Source: a virus
Reading direction: 5' to 3' (one strand)
IMG/VR virus record: IMGVR_UViG_3300011441_000010
DNA: 58,222 bases
Shown here piece by piece: positions 1 to 58,222 of this stretch. Below the pieces are notes generated by a model that was not told where the DNA came from, made no database searches, and saw only the letters and a program-made list of their open reading frames with translations. The position numbers and the translations under genes are program-made. Each line of letters opens with the position of its first letter. Position 1 is the stretch's first letter.

Positions 1-123
1 CGGAACACATTCGGGGCGTCGGTCTACGTCGATCGGCTCTACTACTTCGACCCCCGGGAGTGAACGTGAACGCCAGCGAACTGGAAACCGCCATCCGCTC
101 CGCCCCGCCGTGGCTCCTCATCA
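1..123. repeat. Terminal direct repeat, copy 1 (identical to 58100-58222). Overlapping or terminally redundant ends of a complete phage genome unit
   Basis: Base-by-base comparison shows 1-123 equals 58100-58222. It covers the last 63 nt of the dnaE ORF plus the first 64 nt of the next ORF. Unit length is 58,099 bp. Confidence 0.95.
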
Positions 124-2994: not shown

Positions 2995-4165
2995 CAGATG
3001 CGGGGCAGACCTCGTGGAGGTCGACAACCCGTTCCGCAAGGAGTTCCGCCACCGCCGTGGCGTCGAGTGCGCGGCGAGCGAGGCAGCGCTGGAGGTGCCC
3101 GAGCCGCACATCATGGCGCCGGACTCAGCAGTCTCGGGCCATGACCACACGGATGGCGCGTACCTTCCGAGTGGACCGGGCAAGGAGGTCTCGCGGTATG
3201 CCGACGCGGCGATGTTCCGGAGCGAACCCATGCCGTACAACGCGGATGGTCGGGTTGTGCCGACCGCCTACCTCCTCAACGCGACGCCGGACCCCCTGGG
3301 TAGCCTGGCGGCTCTGAATGCCATCTACACGGGCGGCGTGTACCGGAGCCTCGCCGACGTCACGGATGACATGCGCCGGGAAGCGCTTGTGGAGGTCCGC
3401 AAGAACAAGCTCCAGGGTCCGCTGGAGGTGATCCAGTTCCACTTCCTTCTGGAGGGCGTCAGCCGGTCGTTCACCCATCAGCTCGTGCGCGGGCGGAGGG
3501 CGTTCTACGCACAGGAGTCGCTCCGGTTTGCGGTCGTGGAGGGCGACCCCTGGACCAACCGGGTCGCCGTTCCGCCCAACTACCAGCTCTGGGCCCAGGA
3601 CCAGCAGGACGCATGGGAGGATGCCACCATCGCATCCCAGAACGCCTATCAGCACCTAGTCAATTCGGGAGTTCCGGCTGAGGACGCGAGGGGGCTCATG
3701 CCCCACGCCATGACGACCCGGGTCCATTGGGTCGTAACGCTCCGAGAGCTGCTGTACGTAGCAGGGGTACGTCTTTGTACCCAAGCACAGTTTGAATGGC
3801 GTACGGCCATGGCTAGCGTGGTCAAATCCATTCGCAACGCGTGCTGGACGCCGGAGGGTCCGGTCACCTCACTCGTCGGCCGGGCGAACGCGGCTCAGTA
3901 CGACTGGCAGTACAAGGCCATCGCCGATCTGCTCCGCCCGATCTGCTACCAGGAGGGCAAGTGCGGCTTCAAGGCGAAGGCCGACCGGTCCTGCTCGATC
4001 CGGGAGCGCGTGGACCAGAACGAGGCAGTCAACCGTCCCTCGTCCGAGTGGGGCGAGCCGATCTGGATCGGTGATCCGGACGTCGTGACGGACTACGGTC
4101 CGCCCTATCGTATCCAGGCAATCCAGCCCGCTGAGTGGCTCGCCGACCCGAAGGCAGCGCGGTAA
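2984..4165 (+). CDS. thyX: FAD-dependent thymidylate synthase (ThyX-like) with ~100-aa N-terminal extension
   Basis: VSRSFTHQLVRGRRAFYAQESLRF matches the ThyX signature RHR-X7-S, read here as RGR-X7-S. The N-terminus carries CSRCG. Confidence 0.75.
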   Translation: MRCSRCGADLVEVDNPFRKEFRHRRGVECAASEAALEVPEPHIMAPDSAVSGHDHTDGAYLPSGPGKEVSRYADAAMFRSEPMPYNADGRVVPTAYLLNATPDPLGSLAALNAIYTGGVYRSLADVTDDMRREALVEVRKNKLQGPLEVIQFHFLLEGVSRSFTHQLVRGRRAFYAQESLRFAVVEGDPWTNRVAVPPNYQLWAQDQQDAWEDATIASQNAYQHLVNSGVPAEDARGLMPHAMTTRVHWVVTLRELLYVAGVRLCTQAQFEWRTAMASVVKSIRNACWTPEGPVTSLVGRANAAQYDWQYKAIADLLRPICYQEGKCGFKAKADRSCSIRERVDQNEAVNRPSSEWGEPIWIGDPDVVTDYGPPYRIQAIQPAEWLADPKAAR

Positions 4166-4167
4166 CT

Positions 4168-4356
4168 GTGCGTAGCAACCGGCGTCTCCGCCGGGGGGAG
4201 GAGCCGGTGGAGTTCCGCCCGCTACCCGGGCAAGAAGGCGACTGGGCAGGTGCCGACTACCTACCCCGAGAGCCGATCTGGCTCTGGCTCGGCATCTACC
4301 CGGTCGCTGGGTACCTAGTACTTCTGTTGGCATACATGGGAATGGCGGCATTATGA
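4168..4356 (+). CDS. small membrane protein (start uncertain: 4135 or 4168)
   Basis: C-terminal hydrophobic helix PIWLWLGIYPVAGYLVLLLAYMGMAAL. The stop overlaps the next start. Confidence 0.4.
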   Translation: MRSNRRLRRGEEPVEFRPLPGQEGDWAGADYLPREPIWLWLGIYPVAGYLVLLLAYMGMAAL

Positions 4357-9242: not shown

Positions 9243-9298
9243 AGGTCGGTCTATCAGGGTCGGTCTAGTAGTCCAGGCCAGACCGACCCTAGACCGAC
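9233..9298. repeat. Iteron-like cluster of the motif GGTCGGTCTA: 3 direct plus 2 inverted copies
   Basis: GTCGGTCTA at 9233-9241. GGTCGGTCTA at 9244-9253 and 9258-9267. Inverted AGACCGACC at 9280-9288 and TAGACCGAC at 9290-9298. Confidence 0.75.
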
Positions 9299-9309
9299 TT
9301 GGAAACCGA

Positions 9310-9485
9310 ACCCAGTCTACAGCAAATGCCCTGGTCAAACCTATTACAAGTACTATATTAGTCTGGGTAGACTGGGTATATACCCTACGGGTTCATATCC
9401 GCGAGAATAGGGTTGATGCCCTGGTAGAGCGGTCGGGGGATACGGCTATGCAAGATTTGAATACGAAAAAATGAAACCCAGTCTA
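9310..9485. repeat. Second repeat set, ACCCAGTCTA(C), flanking an AT-rich stretch
   Basis: ACCCAGTCTAC at 9310-9320, its reverse complement GTAGACTGGGT at 9367-9377, and ACCCAGTCTA at 9476-9485. It shares the GTCTA core with the first set. Confidence 0.65.
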
Positions 9486-9857
9486 AGATCGACTAGGAGA
9501 GCGTCTGTGCAACTCGTCCGAATTCGGAGCGGCTGGAATAGACAGGGAAGCAAATGGTATCCGGGTTCTCCGCCTATGGCAGTGCTTATGGATGCGAAGA
9601 GGATCAGTCGGCATAGCGGAGAGAATTCGGTTGCCTCTTGGCTGGACCATTGCTACATGGCCGTGGATGAGGAGACGGGGGAGCAGGTCTGGGTGTCGGA
9701 GCCCTATAGCCTTGGTAATGATTTCCAAGATGATGCGAGTCTCCTCCGGCAGAGTGGATTCCGGGTGGACGTCAGTCCAGAGTTCCTTTCCTGGAGGCAT
9801 TCGAATCGTGCAATCGTGGTCGTTGTTCAGCGGGTAGCGGAGGGTAATGGCAAGTAG
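9471..9857 (+). CDS. hypothetical protein in a lower-GC island (start uncertain: 9471 or 9576)
   Basis: 128-aa ORF, no Shine-Dalgarno seen, composition atypical for the genome. Confidence 0.4.
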   Translation: MKPSLRSTRRASVQLVRIRSGWNRQGSKWYPGSPPMAVLMDAKRISRHSGENSVASWLDHCYMAVDEETGEQVWVSEPYSLGNDFQDDASLLRQSGFRVDVSPEFLSWRHSNRAIVVVVQRVAEGNGK

Positions 9858-9922
9858 GTAGCGTACAGTAATGGTTGCTGAGAGTAACTACAACGACAGT
9901 TCTAGAACTGTGGGGTATTGGT

Positions 9923-10198
9923 ATGGTTTACAGACCATCTGTCGGGGAGACGGAGTTTGGCGGAGTCGCCGGACCGTTCCCAGAGCAGCAGAGATTGGCG
10001 CCCTCGCTACAGCAGGAGATGTGGGCGGACTACGCCACTGATGAGGCGGGAGGGCAGGATGCCGATGGCGGCGACAAGTCCTCGCCGGAGTGGGGTGCGG
10101 ACAACATCGGCCGTCCGCGCGACTCGTTCAGCATCATGAGCCCGGAGCCGGACCTCTCGCAGGTTGCGCCCTGGAACGGTGAGGCGGAGGGCGAGTGA
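9923..10198 (+). CDS. acidic hypothetical protein (start 9875 or 9923)
   Basis: Tracked ORF 9875-10198. The stop overlaps the GTG start of dcd. Confidence 0.4.
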   Translation: MVYRPSVGETEFGGVAGPFPEQQRLAPSLQQEMWADYATDEAGGQDADGGDKSSPEWGADNIGRPRDSFSIMSPEPDLSQVAPWNGEAEGE

Positions 10199-43239: not shown

Positions 43240-43279
43240 CCCTACCGGGGTAGCGCCAGGATAGGCTGCCCCGGTAGGG
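43240..43279 (+). terminator. intrinsic terminator
   Basis: CCCTACCGGGG (43240-43250) pairs with CCCCGGTAGGG (43269-43279), followed by TTTGCTTT. Confidence 0.7.
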
Positions 43280-43280
43280 T
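43251..43280 (+). promoter_or_regulatory. promoter-like TAGCGC-N18-TAGGGT upstream of tRNA-like gene 1
   Basis: Same -35-like hexamer as the 37351 and 50771 copies. The -10-like ends 12 nt before 43293. Confidence 0.4.
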
Positions 43281-43292
43281 TTGCTTTAGCAA

Positions 43293-43367
43293 GCCCCGGC
43301 AGCTCTACGGGAGCACCGCATTAGATCTCGGGTGCGGATGGGCGCGGTTCGAATCCGTGCCGGGGCA
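43293..43367 (+). tRNA. tRNA-like gene 1 with non-canonical anticodon arm (12-nt loop, or 7-bp stem plus 8-nt loop). Isotype undetermined
   Basis: Hand fold: acceptor GCCCCGG/CCGGGGC, D stem GCTC/GAGC, T arm CGCGG-TTCGAAT-CCGTG, discriminator A. The anticodon stem CCGCA/TGCGG encloses TTAGATCTCGGG. Confidence 0.5.
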
Positions 43368-43533
43368 CGGCAGGTAGGGGAACAGAGGGTCCGAGGCACC
43401 GAGACCGAACCACCCGGCAAGAACGGGTAGGCGGGCGGAGTGGTTTACGGAGACAGCGGGAGTAGCGCTCCCCGCCTTGGCTGTATGTGGCCCGGAGGGC
43501 TGTGGCCAGACAAAACCCCCTACCGCTCAACAA

Positions 43534-43606
43534 GTCTCGGTAGCTCAACGGCAGAGCACCCCCGGATAAGGGGGAAGCGCTGCGGGTTCGAATCCCGCCC
43601 GGGGCA
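43534..43606 (+). tRNA. tRNA-like gene 2 with non-canonical anticodon loop (GAU/Ile-like, but a 6- or 8-nt loop and no U33)
   Basis: Hand fold: acceptor GTCTCGG/CCGGGGC (2 G-U pairs), D arm GCTC-AACGGCA-GAGC, T arm GCGGG-TTCGAAT-CCCGC. The anticodon arm is CCCCC-GGATAA-GGGGG. Confidence 0.55.
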
Positions 43607-43669
43607 CACGATGGCGGTCTACCCGAACCCCTGACTGCCGGGGGCACGTCAGTAGGCGGGAGACCGCCA

Positions 43670-54569: not shown

Positions 54570-54594
54570 CTGCATCATCAGCTAGTATTCACCC

Positions 54595-54996
54595 GTGGCT
54601 ACGAATGACGCGAAGTATCAGGCAGACCACAAGAGGGTCCGCGAGATGAGGGGAAAGGTTGCGGAGTATCTTTGCTCCTGCGGGGAGCAGGCTCGGGACT
54701 GGGCTCACCGGCACGAGACTGATCCTGCTATCCCGGCCAACTACGATCCCATGTGCAGGTCTTGCCATAAGGCATATGACCTTCTCGGATGGCTGAAGGA
54801 GGAGCGACAGCTGGAGCGGGATCGGATCGAATCCGGACGCTCGTTCAAGGGATGGTCTCCTGAGCGTCGTGAGGCGCAACGCCAACGGATGCTTGAGAAA
54901 TGGGGCTCTCCAGAAGAGCGAGCCAAGCAGGCGGAGCGCGCAAAACGCGATCAGCCCTGGAGGGGTCGCAGACCCCGAGGAGGTGATGCCAGGTGA
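54595..54996 (+). CDS. HNH homing-type endonuclease 2
   Basis: CSCGEQARDWAHRHETDP...YDPMCRSCHKAYD, a paralogous pattern to HNH 1. It lies immediately upstream of dnaE. Confidence 0.75.
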   Translation: MATNDAKYQADHKRVREMRGKVAEYLCSCGEQARDWAHRHETDPAIPANYDPMCRSCHKAYDLLGWLKEERQLERDRIESGRSFKGWSPERREAQRQRMLEKWGSPEERAKQAERAKRDQPWRGRRPRGGDAR

Positions 54997-54998
54997 GT

Positions 54999-55031
54999 AT
55001 GCAATTCGTTAGTCTACATCACCACACTTAA
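54999..55031 (+). CDS. dnaE: 10-codon ORF MQFVSLHHHT-stop encoding the missing N-terminal PHP H-x-H motif of DnaE (candidate recoded 5' exon of dnaE)
   Basis: ATG 54999 follows AGGTGAG. The frame is -1 relative to the main dnaE ORF, and TAA is at 55029-55031. Confidence 0.45.
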   Translation: MQFVSLHHHT

Positions 55032-55045
55032 CTACCTTCAGTTTT

Positions 55046-58000
55046 ATGGACGGTTTTGGTAGTCCCGAGGCACACTTCATGCGGGCAGCCGATCTGGGAA
55101 TCCCCGCTATCGCCGTTACCGAGCACGGCAACGTCTCTAGCCACGTCCAGGCGGAGAAGGCCGCCAAGAAGACCGGCGTGAAGGTGATCCTGGGGTTGGA
55201 GGCGTACACGGCTCTCGGCGACAAGGAGCGCCGGAAGTTTCACCTCACACTGCTGGCTATGGATGAAGCCGGGTATGCGAACCTCATGCGCATCGTCACG
55301 CGCTCCTGGGCGGAGGGGTTCTATCAGTGGCCTACGGTCTCGGGCCGGATGCTCGCCGACCACAACGAGGGGATCATCGTTCTCAGCGGCTGCAGCGATT
55401 CCCTGCTGTCGTGCTCGCTCCTGGGCGGAAAGTCGATCGACGTCGCCGACGCGTCCTGGGAGCGGGCGAAGCGAACCGCCTTGCGGTTCAAGGAATTGCT
55501 GGGGGACCGATACTATCTAGAGTGCCAGATGTTCCCCGAACTCGACCGAACTCGACAGCTCAATGCAGCTTGGGAAAGACTCAGTGAAGAGACCGGCATT
55601 CCTCTCGTCGCGACCGCAGACGTCCACTACCCCGACCCCAACGACAACGAAATGCAAGTCATCCTCCACGCTGCCGGACGGGGTGCGGGATCTGTGGCCG
55701 CCCAGGAAGCAGGCTGGGAGTACGGCATTCGACTCACGCACCCAAGCTCTGATGTCGTTGCGTATCAACGGATGTCGGCCAGCGGGCTCTCCCCTCGGGG
55801 CGCGGTGCAGGCACTGCGGAATACTGCCGTCATCGCGGATCGTTGTAACGTGGTCCTACCCAAAGCAGACCGTCTTCGCTTCCCGCTACCCGAGGGTGAG
55901 ACGGACGCTCATCGCTATATCTGGCAACAACTTCGGGAAGGGTGGGCGTATCGGGTCGCACAGGGCGCGTCGTTCCTCGTATCCAACAAGCAGCGATGCG
56001 TTGACGCAGTCAACCACGAGATGGAACAGATCACGGCAAAGGGATTCGTCGACTACTTCCTGATGATGTCGGATCTGATCATCTACGCCAAGGAGAATGG
56101 TGTAGCGGTCGGTCCCGGCCGTGGGTCGTCGGCCTCCTCCTTCGTGTGCTACCTCCTCCGGATCACCGAGGTGAACCCGCTGGAGCACCCGCTCATGCTG
56201 TTCGAGCGCTTCATGGCTCCGGACCGGTATGACCTTCCGGACATCGACACCGACTTTGACGATGAGCGACGCTCCATCGTGAAGGACTACGCGATTCGGA
56301 AGTACGGGCAGGACAAGGTCGGCAACATCAGCAACTACACCAAATACCGGGGGAAGAGCGCCCTCACAGACGTCGGCCGGGTCTTCCCGCACATCCCCAA
56401 GCATGCCATCGATACGGCCGGTAGTCTGGTGATCGAGCGGAGCGGCGGTGACTCGCGGGCGGACGCCGGACTCATGGATACCGTCGCCATGTTCCCGGTC
56501 GTCGGCGAGATCTTCGACAAGTACCCGGATCTCTGGAAGGCTGTCCGGCTCGAAGGTAACTACCGGGGCATGGGAGTGCATGCGGCTGGACTCGTGATAA
56601 CAGAGCGACCGATCGCGGAGGTCTGCGCCCAGTACACCCGGACGAAGAAGGGCGCCAACGGAGGGCCGGATGTCACCACCACCGTCGTCTCGGTCGACAA
56701 GAAGGATGGCGAGTATCTGGGCCTGATGAAGGCTGACCTCCTCGGACTCTCAACGATGGGGCTGATCCGGATCGCCATCGAGATGGCGGGTATCCCGCTC
56801 GCCCGCCTGTACGCGATGACGCTGGATGACCCGAAGACCATGAAAGCCTTTCGCGACAACGATGTTGTTGGCATCTTCCAGTTCGAAGGTCGCGCTACCC
56901 GGCTCGTGGGGCGGGAGGTCCGGCCGGATACCTTCGGCGAGATGGTGGACATCAACGGGCTCTCCCGCCCCGGGCCGCTGTTCTCCGGTACCACGGCCGA
57001 CTACATCGACATCAAGCACGGCAAGAAGCAGCTCCAGAAGGTCCACCCGCTCTGGGATGCGATCACGCTCGCGACGAAGGGGCAGGTGATCTATCAGGAG
57101 CAAGTTCTCAATGCCCTGAAGAACATCGGCATGATCCCGGTGACCCGGGTCGGCGAGATCCGCCGCATCATCTCCCAGAAGCTGGGAGAGGCTCAGTTCA
57201 ACGAGTCGGCCGGAGACTTCGTACGGGGTGCCGCGACCCACGGGATTGACGAGGAGACTGCCCTATACATGTGGGGTCGCCTAGTGACGTCGGCTACGTA
57301 CAGCTTCGTGTACGCCCACTCAGCGGCATACGCGATCATCGGGTACTGGTCGATGTGGCTCAAGATGCACCACCCCTTCGAGTTCTACGCGGCAGCGCTC
57401 CGGAAGTCCGATGAGGACAACTGGGCCAAGCTCATCAAAGACGCGGAGCGGCATGGGGTTCCCGTCCTAGGACCGCACCCGGGGCTCTCCGATCTCGACT
57501 GGACGGTTGTGGACGGATCGGTCCGAGCCGGGATTACCCAGATCAAGGGCATCGGCGGAGCGAAGGCCAACGCGCTCCTGGACTACCGGCGGAGGTACGT
57601 CGAGGAGGGCGGAGACCTCGCCGAGATGACTGTGGATGATCTCATCAACGTCAAGGGCATCGGTCCTGCCATTATGGGGAAGATCAAGGAGATTGACCCC
57701 GGAGACCCATTCGGTCTCCTGCGGATTGGGAGGATTCTGCGCAGGGTCCGGGAAGCCATAGACGTAGGGGAACTCCCGCTCAGACGCCCTACGCATACGA
57801 GCGATGAGGTACTAGACGCAGGACCCGGAGAGCGAGTAGTCTTCGTTGGTCTGGTCCGGATGAAGGAGTTCAAGGACTTCATCGAGGACGAGCGAGCGCG
57901 GACTGGCGATGACTTGGAAGCCATCAAGGCCCGCATGAAATCCCCCGACAAACCAACGGGGTGCGTCCTGCACTGCTACGACGACGGAGACGAAGACGTC

Positions 58001-58162
58001 TACATCCGGATCCACCGGACGCTCTACCCCAAGTTCAAGCGGGACTTGGAGGACATCCAGCCGGATCACCACGTGATTCTGGCCGTAGGCAAGAAGTCCC
58101 GGAACACATTCGGGGCGTCGGTCTACGTCGATCGGCTCTACTACTTCGACCCCCGGGAGTGA
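55046..58162 (+). CDS. dnaE: DNA polymerase III alpha subunit (DnaE-type). The N-terminus as tracked appears truncated
   Basis: 1038 aa. PHP domain (AIAVTEHGN...), polymerase core, and HhH region (GIGPAIMGKI). The 3' end lies in the terminal repeat. Confidence 0.9.
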   Translation: MDGFGSPEAHFMRAADLGIPAIAVTEHGNVSSHVQAEKAAKKTGVKVILGLEAYTALGDKERRKFHLTLLAMDEAGYANLMRIVTRSWAEGFYQWPTVSGRMLADHNEGIIVLSGCSDSLLSCSLLGGKSIDVADASWERAKRTALRFKELLGDRYYLECQMFPELDRTRQLNAAWERLSEETGIPLVATADVHYPDPNDNEMQVILHAAGRGAGSVAAQEAGWEYGIRLTHPSSDVVAYQRMSASGLSPRGAVQALRNTAVIADRCNVVLPKADRLRFPLPEGETDAHRYIWQQLREGWAYRVAQGASFLVSNKQRCVDAVNHEMEQITAKGFVDYFLMMSDLIIYAKENGVAVGPGRGSSASSFVCYLLRITEVNPLEHPLMLFERFMAPDRYDLPDIDTDFDDERRSIVKDYAIRKYGQDKVGNISNYTKYRGKSALTDVGRVFPHIPKHAIDTAGSLVIERSGGDSRADAGLMDTVAMFPVVGEIFDKYPDLWKAVRLEGNYRGMGVHAAGLVITERPIAEVCAQYTRTKKGANGGPDVTTTVVSVDKKDGEYLGLMKADLLGLSTMGLIRIAIEMAGIPLARLYAMTLDDPKTMKAFRDNDVVGIFQFEGRATRLVGREVRPDTFGEMVDINGLSRPGPLFSGTTADYIDIKHGKKQLQKVHPLWDAITLATKGQVIYQEQVLNALKNIGMIPVTRVGEIRRIISQKLGEAQFNESAGDFVRGAATHGIDEETALYMWGRLVTSATYSFVYAHSAAYAIIGYWSMWLKMHHPFEFYAAALRKSDEDNWAKLIKDAERHGVPVLGPHPGLSDLDWTVVDGSVRAGITQIKGIGGAKANALLDYRRRYVEEGGDLAEMTVDDLINVKGIGPAIMGKIKEIDPGDPFGLLRIGRILRRVREAIDVGELPLRRPTHTSDEVLDAGPGERVVFVGLVRMKEFKDFIEDERARTGDDLEAIKARMKSPDKPTGCVLHCYDDGDEDVYIRIHRTLYPKFKRDLEDIQPDHHVILAVGKKSRNTFGASVYVDRLYYFDPRE

Positions 58163-58222
58163 ACGTGAACGCCAGCGAACTGGAAACCGCCATCCGCTCC
58201 GCCCCGCCGTGGCTCCTCATCA
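58100..58222. repeat. Terminal direct repeat, copy 2 (identical to 1-123)
   Basis: Same comparison as copy 1. Confidence 0.95.

What the first reader, a model, noticed from the sequence alone, without database searches (positions are those of the whole stretch)
54999..55048. dnaE N-terminal PHP motif is split by ACT-TA-ACT across a TAA stop: candidate +5 ribosomal hop
The main dnaE ORF starts at ATG 55046 with MDGFGSPEAH. That is the middle of the conserved Pol III alpha N-terminal motif H-x-H-[ST]-x-[FY]-S-x-x-D-G, and it has no Shine-Dalgarno.

Forty-seven nt upstream, ATG 54999 (preceded by AGGTGAG) opens MQFVSLHHHT and then hits TAA (55029-55031). The junction reads CAC ACT TAA CTA CC, which is ACT (55026-55028), TA, ACT (55031-55033).

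If peptidyl-tRNA-Thr detaches from the first ACT and re-pairs with the second (+5 nt, across the stop), translation continues ACC TTC AGT TTT ATG GAC GGT. The product is MQFVSLHHHTTFSFMDGFGS, which restores the canonical motif with exact spacing.

Matched take-off and landing codons flanking a stop are the classical layout for short ribosomal hops and gene-60-type bypassing. The alternatives are a genuine 5-nt indel or assembly error, or a DnaE that really lacks the H-x-H motif.
Basis: partly seen in the sequence, partly recalled or inferred. Interest (0 to 1): 0.8.

Follow-up and report, generated by a model that had tools for sequence, protein, structure and literature searches.

The report
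Five-base gap in phage polymerase gene
A soil phage's DNA polymerase gene is broken ten codons in by a real five-base insert (a stop codon plus two bases) next to a mobile nuclease gene, and relatives including three lab-grown mycobacteriophages suggest ribosomes hop over it, a rare way of reading a gene.

Summary
ATG 54999 opens MQFVSLHHHT, then TAA. Skipping TAACT (55029-55033) restores the canonical DnaE N-terminus exactly. The same sequence is found in separate assemblies from at least four other samples.

It is not an isolated mutation. The ORF just upstream (54595-54996) is an HNH-like endonuclease. Homologues sit directly before dnaE in other actinophages. In six of these phages dnaE is frame-broken within codons 10-14, and in a seventh it carries an in-frame 6-nt insert (11 anomalous loci in all).

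The clearest case is three cultured M. smegmatis phages:
- Onyinye has no HNH gene and an intact dnaE.
- Leopard has the same HNH family and TCT[TAGCC]ACT after codon 10.
- Aikoy has a different HNH gene and TAT[TGAAC]GGC after codon 14.

In Leopard and Aikoy the codons before the gap differ from Onyinye by silent changes only (7 and 10 codons). The sequence after the gap is identical. No start codon follows for 10-14 codons.

Best reading: the gap is the edge of a homing-endonuclease cassette, and a +5 stop-hop (ACU to ACU) makes full-length DnaE.

Main rival: reinitiation at AUG 55046, giving a truncated enzyme. No experiment has tested either reading.

The parts
54570..54580 (+). Possible remnant of an older dnaE leader (CTG CAT CAT CA, reading L-H-H-H) 15 nt upstream of the HNH-like ORF
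   Evidence: The pattern YTNCAYCAYCA occurs only twice on the + strand of the 58-kb genome, here and in the real leader at 55014. Relatives L080, L079, L081, P0128 and P0130 show clearer leader copies upstream of, or fused to, the HNH ORF. Weak on its own.
54595..54996 (+). HNH-like (His-Me finger) endonuclease ORF, 133 aa, GTG start. Its last codons (GGA GGT GAT GCC AGG TGA) contain the Shine-Dalgarno sequence for the dnaE leader.
   Evidence: No Pfam hit. PHROG 4160, function unknown, E 9e-13. Family alignment A1 has an invariant CxC..DWA..H..Y.P.CR..H motif. AlphaFold model pLDDT 68 with a beta-beta-alpha core. Top Foldseek PDB hits are HNH domains, but weak (prob 0.97, E 0.06). Sub-threshold Pfam HNH hit in family member P0131. 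Some GenBank homologues are annotated as HNH endonuclease. Homologues lie directly upstream of dnaE in L079, L080, L081 and Leopard.
54979..54986 (+). Strong Shine-Dalgarno GGAGGTGA for the leader; a second AGGTGAG lies at 54991-54997
   Evidence: GGAGGTG[AG][GT] lies within 45 nt upstream of the leader start in all 8 anomalous metagenomic loci and in 0 of 28 intact loci. Fisher p = 3e-8.
54999..55028 (+). dnaE leader, codons 1-10 (MQFVSLHHHT). Encodes PHP-domain strand beta-1 with the H-x-H metal ligands.
   Evidence: The amino-acid sequence lies within family variation.
55026..55028 (+). Proposed take-off codon ACT (Thr). A rare codon, 8% of Thr codons in this genome.
55029..55033 (+). 5-nt coding gap TAACT: stop codon TAA (55029-31) plus CT. 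The landing triplet ACT (55031-33) overlaps it.
   Evidence: Leopard (TAGCC) and Aikoy (TGAAC) have the same 'stop + 2 nt' format.
55034..58162 (+). dnaE body from the resume codon ACC (Thr11) to the stop. The ORF as called by software starts at ATG 55046 (Met15 of the restored protein) or later.
   Evidence: Codons 11-14 (ACC TTC AGT TTT, reading TFSF) keep the family motif upstream of the first start codon.
54981..55068 (+). Lowest-GC stretch of the whole genome (0.38-0.39 against 0.64), caused by A/T-ending synonymous codons around the gap
   Evidence: GC3 of the first 24 codons is 0.46 against 0.75 for codons 25-300. The offset of -0.29 compares with +0.02 (sd 0.10) in 27 intact relatives.

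Best explanation
The TAACT at 55029-55033 is a genuine, fixed, untranslated 5-nt gap at the right-hand edge of a mobile HNH-like endonuclease cassette. The cassette has inserted directly in front of dnaE.

What the cassette carries:
- the endonuclease ORF (54595-54996);
- a strong Shine-Dalgarno sequence embedded in that ORF's last codons;
- its own synonymously recoded copy of the first ten dnaE codons.

The recoded leader plus the gap probably destroys the endonuclease's recognition site in the conserved H-H-H-T-T coding DNA. That would make the carrier phage immune to its own enzyme (inferred by analogy with T4 MobA/gene 60).

Proposed route to full-length DnaE:
1. Ribosomes start at AUG 54999.
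2. They pause with peptidyl-tRNA-Thr on ACU (55026-28) and the stop UAA in the A site.
3. The tRNA unpairs and re-pairs with the identical ACU 5 nt downstream (55031-33).
4. Decoding resumes at ACC 55034.
The product is MQFVSLHHHTTFSFMDG..., with an intact PHP metal site.

Shown: the gap is real; it belongs to a recurrent, cassette-linked class of dnaE gaps; in sister systems the two frames must be joined by some non-standard event.
Inferred: the hop itself, its efficiency, and the immunity function.

Sub-confidences: gap real 0.97; cassette origin 0.8; hop as the route to functional DnaE in this phage 0.6.
For: **1. The gap is real and fixed.** The junction is identical in the four other contigs read, each from a different sample.

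**2. The hop restores the protein exactly.** Skipping 5 nt gives the family N-terminus with the right spacing.
- A -1 shift (or any route that reads the gap in the dnaE frame) would add two residues and a +2 shift one; no slippery site exists.
- A perfect ACU/ACU pair plus an A-site stop is expected in about 0.1% of random 5-nt insertions.

**3. There is a cassette.**
- Homologues of the upstream ORF lie immediately 5' of dnaE in L079, L080, L081 and Mycobacterium phage Leopard.
- Several of these ORFs begin with dnaE leader codons: MRYVSL.., MRAVSLH.., P0128 MGKFVSLHH.., P0130 MEWVSLHHHST...
- HNH and DnaE identities disagree. L079-L080 are 55% (HNH) against 83% (DnaE); window-L079 are 61% against 52%.
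- All 8 anomalous metagenomic loci, and none of 28 intact ones, carry the cassette's GGAGGTG[AG][GT] end (p = 3e-8).

**4. Gaps recur at the same place.**
| Locus | Gap | After codon |
|---|---|---|
| L021 | +2 | 10 |
| L053 | +2 | 10 |
| L079 | +2 | 10 |
| L081 | +2 | 10 |
| Leopard | +5 | 10 |
| L057 | +8 | 13 |
| Aikoy | +5 | 14 |
| L078 | +5 | 14 |
| L080 | in-frame CAU-UUA-CAU | 8 |

. The 0-frame codon after the take-off codon is a stop (UAA, UAG, UGA, UAG) or a codon rare in this GC-rich window (UUA x3, CUA, CAA) in all but L078.

**5. A natural experiment in cultured, plaque-forming phages.**
- Leopard against gap-free Onyinye: 7 synonymous and 0 non-synonymous codon changes in codons 2-10, then 0 differences in codons 11-40.
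- Aikoy against Onyinye: 10 synonymous and 0 non-synonymous in codons 2-14, then 0 differences.
- The first in-frame ATG/GTG/TTG after the gap is 15 codons (Leopard) or 11 codons (Aikoy) downstream, past the GDG metal ligand.
- So the leader's amino acids are under selection, and they can only matter if joined to the body.

**6. Landing triplets fit the P-site tRNA.** Window ACU is 3/3 and L053 UCU is 3/3. Leopard and L057 GCC for tRNA-Ser, and Aikoy AAC for tRNA-Tyr, match at positions 2-3.

**7. There is precedent.**
- Synthetic +5/+6 stop-hops and the gene 60/MobA cassette (PMC5009743; bioRxiv 2022.08.31.505936).
- 7-10-nt gaps in Streptomyces phage Hau3 terminase, with mass-spectrometry support (PMC10732093).
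Against: - No protein or reporter data exist for any of these genes.
- In this window an AUG (55046) lies 14 nt after the stop in an unstructured, AT-rich stretch. Termination-reinitiation is therefore physically plausible.
- Two relatives look built for reinitiation. L078 has a TGATG stop/start overlap. L057's insert creates AGGTG 5 nt before its AUG.
- Synthetic stop-hops are described as non-programmed events (PMC5009743). By my own recollection, not checked here, their efficiency is around a percent. Only 10 residues have been made at take-off, so no nascent-peptide anchor of the gene-60 kind can act.
- No significant RNA structure flanks the site.
- L079/L081 (UCU UU ACG) offer only poor re-pairing (UUU), so the mechanism may not be uniform across the family.
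- The endonuclease assignment rests on weak evidence: no Pfam hit and Foldseek E 0.06.
- All contigs of the window's own phage are near-clonal. Persistence of this particular gap over time is therefore not shown directly.
Confidence: 0.6

Rival explanations
1. Termination-reinitiation. Ribosomes translate the 10-codon leader and terminate at UAA 55029. A fraction then slide 14 nt and reinitiate at AUG 55046. The working polymerase would be a DnaE lacking its first 14 residues (strand beta-1 and the H-x-H ligands). It would therefore have an inactive or absent PHP proofreading site. The leader peptide might be dispensable or might act in trans.
For: - AUG 55046 is the first start codon in the dnaE frame and lies close to the stop in an unstructured, AT-rich stretch.
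- L078 has a classic TGATG stop/start overlap. L057's insert creates AGGTG 5 nt upstream of its AUG.
- Related phages tolerate dnaE split into separately translated pieces at about residue 299, joined by overlapping stop/start codons.
- 70S sliding and reinitiation at gene junctions is established (PMC11194080).
Against: - There is no Shine-Dalgarno sequence before 55046.
- The model gives no reason for the exact ACU/ACU match.
- It gives no reason for keeping codons 11-14 (TFSF) in the dnaE frame.
- It cannot work in Leopard, Aikoy, L079 or L081, which have the same architecture but no nearby restart codon.
- It does not explain why leaders diverge only by silent changes.
- In L021 the AUG is buried in a 10-bp hairpin.
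- In M. tuberculosis DnaE1, mutating single PHP metal ligands abolishes exonuclease activity, lowers stability and reduces polymerase activity; one such mutant was not expressed (PMC5636811).
Confidence: 0.27
2. A frameshift that reads through the gap rather than hopping over it. A -1 event at or before the stop would give DnaE two extra residues (HHHT-LT-TFSF); a +2 event at the third His codon would replace the first Thr by Leu and add one residue (HHH-LT-TFSF).
For: - The two frames differ by +2, which equals -1.
- All 9 frame-breaking gaps found are congruent to 2 mod 3.
- L079/L081 (UCU UUA CG) lack a good landing triplet.
Against: - There is no X XXY YYZ-type slippery sequence.
- tRNA-Thr cannot re-pair at -1 (CAC) or +2 (UUA).
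- The product would carry an insertion between the H-x-H and D metal ligands, whose spacing is invariant in every intact relative read.
- Gap lengths of 2, 5 and 8 nt would give differently sized insertions across the family.
Confidence: 0.05
3. A tolerated or recent loss-of-function lesion. The gap is simply a scar of cassette insertion or break repair. DnaE is crippled, and the phage replicates poorly, as a mutator, or with host polymerase.
For: - The contigs of this phage that were read are near-clonal, so the allele could be young.
- The gap sits exactly at the boundary of cassette-derived DNA in the sister systems, as a recombination scar would.
Against: - The allele is the consensus in complete 58-kb genomes assembled from several samples.
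- Equivalent gaps exist in cultured, plaque-forming phages.
- They also exist in cassettes whose HNH proteins are only 48-61% identical.
- The rest of the 1038-codon ORF is intact.
- Leaders are under purifying selection.
Confidence: 0.06
4. Sequencing or assembly artefact.
For: It is a metagenomic contig.
Against: The 5 nt are identical in JGI and ENA assemblies of different samples. The same class of gap occurs in finished genomes of isolated phages.
Confidence: 0.01

Closest known systems
Phage T4 gene 60 bypass plus the MobA homing-endonuclease cassette (Huang 1988; Bonocora 2011; Manning & Atkins, bioRxiv 2022.08.31.505936; PMC5009743)
   Same: - A free-standing endonuclease gene has inserted at an essential, highly conserved replication-type gene.
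- The cassette carries a recoded copy of the target's flanking codons.
- An untranslated insert lies in the conserved coding sequence close to the endonuclease gene.
- The take-off codon is followed by a stop (or a rare codon in some relatives), with matched take-off and landing codons.
- Distribution among close relatives is sporadic.
- Some relatives have lost the endonuclease but kept the gap (L021, L057, L078).
   Different: - The gap is 5 nt (2-8 nt across the family), not 50 nt.
- There is no take-off stem-loop and no Shine-Dalgarno element inside the gap.
- Take-off is at codon 10, so the long nascent-peptide signal of gene 60 cannot exist.
- The target is dnaE of actinophages, not a topoisomerase of T4-like phages.
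- Sequence relation of the HNH-like protein to MobA was not tested.
- Bypassing and immunity are experimentally shown for T4 and only inferred here.
UUA-linked short coding gaps in the large terminase of Streptomyces phage Hau3 and two prophages (Smith 2013; Antonov et al. 2023, PMC10732093)
   Same: - Actinophage, essential gene.
- A 7-10-nt non-coding insert sits inside an invariant protein motif.
- It is rare (3 of 100 genes).
- A slow A-site codon is involved, and the argument that a frameshift would add residues to a conserved junction applies equally.
- Relatives L079, L080 and L081 have UUA in the A site.
   Different: - Here the A-site codon is a UAA stop, not UUA.
- The gene is dnaE.
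- The gap is linked to an endonuclease cassette, an association I did not see mentioned in the parts of the Hau3 paper read here.
- Hau3 has reporter and mass-spectrometry support; this case has none.
Synthetic 'stop-hops' in E. coli (Weiss, Dunn, Atkins, Gesteland 1987: +5 and +6 hops; reviewed in PMC5009743)
   Same: [quoted passage not shown]
   Different: Those were engineered constructs and non-programmed events. PMC5009743 states that no natural use of in-frame stop-hopping is known and describes natural bypassing as rare. This would be a natural, selected case.
Translationally coupled split genes created by homing endonucleases (T4 gene 39/60; nrdA of phage Aeh1; split dnaE of Microbacterium, Onyinye-like and L079-type phages)
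   Same: An endonuclease-associated interruption of a replication gene. Overlapping stop/start codons are seen at the second dnaE split (about residue 299) in relatives and at the L078 leader.
   Different: The upstream piece here is only 10 residues. In most family members the downstream piece has no start codon.

Membership tests
Translational bypassing / stop-hop | Two ORFs in different frames whose junction at the gap recreates a conserved protein with no residue added or lost | tested here: met
   Skipping 55029-55033 gives MQFVSLHHHTTFSFMDG. This equals the family N-terminus and aligns with the T. aquaticus Pol III alpha PHP start.
Translational bypassing / stop-hop | Landing triplet cognate to the peptidyl-tRNA on the take-off codon | tested here: met
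   ACT 55026-28 and ACT 55031-33 are identical. The chance for a random insert is 2-3%. Relatives match at 3/3 (L053, L021) or 2/3 (Leopard, Aikoy, L057, L078); L079/L081 match poorly.
Translational bypassing / stop-hop | Slow-to-decode codon in the A site at take-off | tested here: met
   UAA follows the take-off codon. Relatives have UAG, UGA, UUA, CUA or CAA, judged rare from the codon usage of this window.
Translational bypassing / stop-hop | Gap maintained by selection across related genomes | tested here: met
   Ten further dnaE loci have gaps after codons 8-14. Leaders diverge by silent changes only (7/0 and 10/0 synonymous/non-synonymous) in Leopard and Aikoy. This particular TAACT gap is seen only in one near-clonal population.
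Translational bypassing / stop-hop | Trans-frame product demonstrated (junction peptide or reporter) | not testable with these tools
   Needs mass spectrometry or reporter assays.
T4 gene 60-type programmed bypass element | Take-off stem-loop and 5' stem-loop in the mRNA | tested here: not met
   Folding of 54975-55110 and 54999-55064 gives z = -1.1 and +0.55. Only a weak hairpin starts at the landing codon. No Rfam match.
T4 gene 60-type programmed bypass element | Nascent-peptide signal in the exit tunnel and a roughly 50-nt gap with an internal Shine-Dalgarno element | tested here: not met
   Only 10 residues are made before take-off, and the gap is 5 nt. The strong Shine-Dalgarno sequence lies upstream of the leader start, not in the gap.
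T4 gene 60-type programmed bypass element | Travels with a homing endonuclease gene as one cassette | tested here: met
   The HNH-like ORF ends 2 nt before the leader. The same family sits before dnaE in L079, L080, L081 and Leopard. The cassette edge coincides with the gap.
Hau3-type UUA-triggered short bypass | Rare UUA codon opens a short non-coding insert in a conserved motif | tested here: not met
   The window has UAA, not UUA, in the 0 frame. UUA does open the gap in L079 and L081 and is the flanked codon in L080.
HNH (His-Me finger) homing endonuclease | Beta-beta-alpha-metal fold with catalytic His and Cys pairs | tested here: inconclusive
   No Pfam hit for the window protein. Conserved CxC...H...C..CH motif. 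Model pLDDT 68 with a beta-beta-alpha core. Best Foldseek hits are HNH domains at E 0.06-0.2. Sub-threshold Pfam HNH hit in P0131.
HNH (His-Me finger) homing endonuclease | Present or absent among otherwise near-identical genomes, with an altered target site beside it | tested here: met
   Onyinye (absent) against Leopard (present), 98% identical in dnaE. Silent recoding plus the gap lies only beside the HNH gene. Window relatives at 81-84% DnaE identity lack both.
HNH (His-Me finger) homing endonuclease | Cleaves the cassette-free allele but not its own | not testable with these tools
   Needs an enzyme assay.
Termination-reinitiation (rival) | Restart codon with a ribosome-binding signal near the stop | tested here: inconclusive
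   AUG lies 14 nt downstream but has no Shine-Dalgarno sequence. Good signals in L078 and L057. No restart codon in Leopard, Aikoy, L079 or L081.

The most novel reading that the evidence does not exclude
Actinophage dnaE genes host a second natural family of 'homing endonuclease plus bypass' cassettes, after T4 MobA/gene 60.
- At least two unrelated HNH genes each bring a silently recoded dnaE leader ending in a minimal 'stop codon + 2 nt' gap.
- Ribosomes hop this gap only 10-14 codons after initiation, without a long nascent peptide or a stem-loop.
- The gap serves to destroy the endonuclease target in an invariant metal-binding motif without changing the protein.

This would be the shortest natural programmed bypass known. 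The trio Onyinye/Leopard/Aikoy in M. smegmatis would make it directly testable.
Probability: 0.5. Interest if true: 0.9.

Novelty: new variant of a known kind. Interest (0 to 1): 0.8.

Why it matters
Natural translational bypassing is known from very few systems: T4 gene 60 and its relatives, yeast mitochondrial byps, and the proposed Hau3 terminase gaps. Specialists have long expected shorter counterparts with matched take-off and landing codons (PMC5009743), but, as far as that review and my searches show, few or none have been established.

If the hop is real, this finding would do several things:
- It gives a minimal natural stop-hop in a replicative polymerase.
- It shows that coupling an endonuclease cassette with a bypassed gap arose more than once.
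- It explains why annotators of cultured mycobacteriophages were forced to give DnaE implausible start sites. Leopard gp82 starts 15 codons after the gap. Aikoy gp83 starts inside the HNH gene in the wrong frame.
- It supplies an isogenic, culturable test set (Onyinye, Leopard, Aikoy).

Two practical points hold even if the hop is wrong. Gene callers truncate these polymerases, and a conserved H-x-H strand encoded out of frame should not be read as a pseudogene.

Tried and rejected
- **Near-identical DNA in GenBank phages:** none. The exact degenerate junction pattern in IMG/VR: none. The window's phage is not in either collection.
- **Homologues whose called protein starts at 'MDG' or later.** I first took these as recurrent truncation. 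Of 12 checked at the DNA level, 9 were gene-caller mis-starts with intact GTG/TTG/ATG leaders: P0002, P0004, P0006, P0012, P0022, P0107, P0109, P0119. Only P0001 (the window), P0029 and P0114 are truly interrupted.
- **IMG/VR pattern scans** with CACCAY...ATGGAYGGNTWYGG:

| Spacing scanned | Result |
|---|---|
| 16-17 | L053 only |
| 19-20 | chance hits only |
| 22-23 | chance hits only |
| 13-14 (deletions) | chance hits only |

 So no deletion-type interruption was seen. The anchors bias these scans towards MDG[FY]G genes.
- **Close relatives of L053 in IMG/VR:** none.
- **Low GC3 around the gap as a general signature:** it holds for the window and L021 but not for L053 or L057.
- **RNA structure as a stimulator:** nothing significant in the window. 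L021 has a strong hairpin. No Rfam family matched.
- **Suppressor or special tRNAs:** only tRNA-Arg(ACG) and tRNA-Ile(GAT).
- **Promoter or terminator near the junction:** none.
- **-1/+2 frameshifting:** no slippery site, and it would add one or two residues.
- **An endonuclease gene always next to a gap:** not so. L021, L057 and L078 keep only the cassette's 3' end, and L030 has a classical HNH gene with an intact but synonymously shifted dnaE start.
- **Codon-rarity rank of the leader among all genes:** not exceptional with my crude gene calls.

Full report
**1. What is in the window**

- The upstream ORF ends with GGA GGT GAT GCC AGG TGA at 54996.
- Two bases later, ATG 54999 opens ATG CAA TTC GTT AGT CTA CAT CAC CAC ACT TAA.
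- The stop at 55029-31 is followed by CT, then ACC TTC AGT TTT ATG GAC GGT....
- The long ORF 55046-58162 (1038 aa) is in the +2 frame relative to 54999. Upstream of 55046 that frame has no ATG, GTG or TTG back to its own stop at 55010-12.
- Pfam finds PHP, DNA_pol3_alpha and finger domains. The PHP match starts at profile position 11.
- Skipping 55029-55033 gives MQFVSLHHHTTFSFMDGFG. This aligns from residue 2 with residue 6 of T. aquaticus Pol III alpha (KFAHLHQHTQFSLLDG).
- It has the same length and motif as every intact relative read at the DNA level, for example Streptomyces phage Rooney, MKYVSLHHHTTYSYMDG.

**2. The gap is real**

The window is the whole of JGI contig Ga0137465_1000137. 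It has a terminal overlap of about 123 nt, so it is a complete genome.
- Nine contigs carry the same DnaE. The four others whose DNA I read all have the identical junction: ENA ERZ27267742, ERZ27267709, ERZ27267720 and JGI Ga0137448.
- These contigs differ from the window by at most 1 SNP in 23 kb. This is one successful but near-clonal population.
- The nearest other phages (76-84% DnaE identity: L013-L018, L031, L058) have intact leaders.

**3. Chance**

I simulated random 5-nt insertions into codons 2-15.
- A matched codon pair that restores the protein arises in 2-3% of trials.
- That pair plus a stop in the A site arises in about 0.1% of trials.

ACT is a rare Thr codon here (8%). No -1 or +2 re-pairing is possible for tRNA-Thr or tRNA-His at this site.

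**4. A false lead**

Many database homologues start at 'MDG'. This looked like recurrent truncation.
- Nine of the 12 I checked at the DNA level were gene-caller mis-starts on intact GTG/TTG leaders.
- Three were genuine: the window, L057 (P0029) and L078 (P0114).

**5. Gaps recur at the same place**

| Locus | Junction | Gap | After codon |
|---|---|---|---|
| L021 | CAC CAC TCT [CA] ACC | +2 | 10 |
| L053 | CAC CAC TCT [CT] ACC | +2 | 10 |
| L057 | TTT TCC [TAGGTGCC] TAC ATG | +8 | 13 |
| L078 | TCT TTC [CATTG] ATG | +5 | 14 |

- These DnaE proteins are only 54-64% identical to the window's and to each other. Closer intact relatives lie between them.
- All are insertions, and all are congruent to 2 mod 3.
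- All keep the canonical residues on both sides.
- A scan for deletion-type spacing found none.

**6. The upstream ORF is the key**

ORF 54595-54996 has no Pfam hit. It does have homologues with an invariant CxC...DWA..H...Y.P.CR..H motif.
- The AlphaFold model (pLDDT 68) has a beta-beta-alpha core.
- The best PDB matches are HNH domains, but weakly (prob 0.97, E 0.06).
- A family member gives sub-threshold Pfam HNH hits.
- Some GenBank homologues are annotated as HNH endonuclease.
- I therefore call it HNH-like, with moderate confidence.

Two homologues begin with dnaE leader residues: P0128 MGKFVSLHH... and P0130 MEWVSLHHHST.... Another, P0132, ends ...MEYVSLHHHS followed by a stop.

In IMG/VR the family sits immediately 5' of dnaE in three contigs:
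- L079 and L081 have CAC CAC TCT [TT] ACG. That is +2 after codon 10, with the rare UUA as the next 0-frame codon. There is no start codon in the dnaE frame for more than 30 codons.
- L080 has an in-frame CAT CAT TTA CAT CAT, that is, matched CAU codons flanking UUA. It also has an old leader copy (VRYVSLHHHS...) upstream of the HNH gene.

The window itself has a probable leader remnant (CTG CAT CAT CA) 15 nt before the HNH start. That pattern occurs only there and in the true leader on that strand.

Other support for a mobile cassette:
- HNH and DnaE similarities are discordant, as expected for a mobile gene.
- All eight anomalous metagenomic loci carry the cassette's 3' end, GGAGGTG[AG][GT]. 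This encodes the ...GG(D/E/G)AR C-terminus and doubles as a perfect Shine-Dalgarno sequence. It lies just upstream of the leader start.
- None of 28 intact loci has it (Fisher p = 3e-8).
- L021, L057 and L078 have therefore lost the nuclease gene but kept its end, the leader and the gap.
- The alignment suggests the window's gap (ACT T-AAC-T ACC) is an L081-type +2 gap plus three bases.

**7. A natural experiment in cultured phages**

The best GenBank homologue of the window's HNH-like protein is gp81 of Mycobacterium phage Leopard (52% identity). It lies directly before 'DnaE-like DNA polymerase III alpha'.
- **Leopard** reads ATG GAG TAT GTT AGT TTG CAC CAT CAC TCT [TAGCC] ACT TTC AGC TAC GGC GAT GGC.
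- **Onyinye**, its sister phage (98% identical in dnaE), has no HNH gene and an uninterrupted ATG GAA TAC GTT AGC CTC CAC CAC CAT TCG ACT TTC....
- **Aikoy** carries a different, annotated HNH endonuclease and reads ...AGC ACG TTC TCC TAT [TGAAC] GGC GAT GGC.

Comparison with Onyinye:

| Phage | Codons before the gap | Changes (syn / non-syn) | Codons after the gap, up to codon 40 |
|---|---|---|---|
| Leopard | 2-10 | 7 / 0 | 0 differences |
| Aikoy | 2-14 | 10 / 0 (including two Ser codon-family switches) | 0 differences |

- The gap is therefore the exact right-hand edge of cassette-borne DNA.
- The leader's amino-acid sequence is under strong selection.
- The first in-frame ATG/GTG/TTG after the gap is 15 codons (Leopard) or 11 codons (Aikoy) downstream, beyond the GDG metal ligand.
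- The depositors had to annotate DnaE from that GTG (Leopard), or from a GTG inside the HNH gene that reads the leader out of frame (Aikoy).
- These are viable, plaque-purified phages.
- Window, Leopard and Aikoy share one gap format, 'stop codon + 2 nt' (TAA CT, TAG CC, TGA AC).
- In each case positions 2-3 of the landing triplet suit the P-site tRNA. In the window all three positions match.

**8. Mechanism**

The evidence fits the T4 MobA/gene 60 logic. There, an endonuclease cassette carries a diverged copy of the target's flanking codons, plus an untranslated insert that blocks self-cleavage and is bypassed by ribosomes (PMC5009743; bioRxiv 2022.08.31.505936).

It also fits the short gaps of Streptomyces phage Hau3 terminase. 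A junction peptide was found there by mass spectrometry with a UAA variant in E. coli (PMC10732093).

For the window I infer the following:
1. Strong initiation at AUG 54999.
2. A pause with ACU in the P site and UAA in the A site. By general knowledge, not tested here, a C after the stop is a weak termination context.
3. Re-pairing of peptidyl-tRNA-Thr to ACU at +5.
4. Resumption at ACC.

The unusually strong Shine-Dalgarno sequence, and the AT-rich, unstructured surroundings (the lowest GC in the genome), could compensate for a modest hop efficiency. That last point is speculation.

**9. What remains open**

- Nothing has been measured.
- The window, unlike Leopard, Aikoy, L079 and L081, has an AUG 14 nt after the stop.
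- L078 (TGATG) and L057 (AGGTG 5 nt before AUG) look suited to termination-reinitiation.
- These phages tolerate dnaE split at about residue 299.
- A DnaE starting at Met15 is therefore a live rival, or a co-product.
- Against this rival: single PHP metal-ligand mutations in M. tuberculosis DnaE1 abolish exonuclease activity and destabilise the enzyme (PMC5636811). The ACU/ACU match and the retained TFSF codons would also be unexplained.
- L079/L081 offer only poor re-pairing, so the family may use more than one trick.
- The nuclease activity, its target and the immunity role are all inferred.

**10. Verdict**

- The hop hypothesis is the best-supported reading (about 0.6), now with a reason for the gap to exist and with culturable sister systems.
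- Reinitiation stands at about 0.27.
- I found no paper describing this in dnaE.
- It is a new variant of a known kind of system.

Noticed in passing
window 1-123 and 58100-58222: The contig ends repeat each other over about 123 nt. The window is therefore a complete, circularly permuted or terminally redundant genome of about 58.1 kb. dnaE is followed directly by the genes at the window start.
   Followed up: partly
window 9297-9934: Apart from the dnaE leader, this is the only region with 66-nt windows at or below 42% GC in a 64% GC genome. It lies after the 878-aa Prim-Pol/D5_N gene. It could be an origin, a promoter cluster or foreign DNA.
   Followed up: no
window 43268-43368 and 43534-43607: Two tRNA genes, Arg(ACG) and Ile(GAT). 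The Arg call is 101 nt long, which is unusual and could mean an intron or a miscall.
   Followed up: no
L083 (Leopard) 3903-3980; L085 (Aikoy) 1170-1260: The GenBank annotations of DnaE in these cultured phages start at implausible sites. Leopard gp82 starts at a GTG 15 codons after the gap. Aikoy gp83 starts at a GTG inside the HNH gene and reads the leader out of frame. Neither record notes the interrupted leader.
   Followed up: yes
L002 (Microbacterium phage Hager) 2496-2513; L079 about 4309-4321; L080 and L081 at the same position; L084 (Onyinye) 2155-2462: dnaE is also split at about residue 299-350 in several actinophage lineages. The pieces are joined by overlapping or adjacent stop/start codons, sometimes with an extra small ORF or a roughly 630-nt insert between the halves. 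This looks like a second hotspot for mobile-element invasion.
   Followed up: partly
L053 2628-6548: This DnaE (1306 aa) carries an intein-like insert of about 280 residues (CTGDTVVE...SHNN) with an HNH-type motif, in addition to the +2 gap in its leader.
   Followed up: no
L001 (Arthrobacter phage Wollypog) 2373-3114: dnaE is interrupted by a hypothetical gene and an annotated HNH endonuclease gene lying between two DnaE ORFs.
   Followed up: no
L030 1438-1959 and the dnaE start at 1956: A classical Pfam HNH endonuclease gene overlaps the start of an intact dnaE. That dnaE's first 24 codons have the lowest GC3 offset (-0.15) of all intact relatives. It may be a cassette that protects its target by silent changes alone.
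   Followed up: partly
P0132 (contig not fetched): An HNH-family ORF that runs in frame into ...MEYVSLHHHS and then stops. This is another leader terminated by a stop right after codon 10.
   Followed up: no
Protein database entries P0002, P0004, P0006, P0012, P0022, P0107, P0109, P0119: Automatic gene calls for this DnaE family often start at an internal Met because the true start is GTG or TTG with a weak ribosome-binding site. N-terminal truncation in the protein databases is therefore mostly artefactual.
   Followed up: yes
L084 (Onyinye) 1138-1204: In the cassette-free phage, dnaE is translationally coupled (TGATG) to a 21-codon ORF (MAGRKGKGYRLPKKFNGIKCF). In Leopard the HNH gene starts at the same ATG GCG, so the cassette's left edge lies inside that small ORF.
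   Followed up: partly
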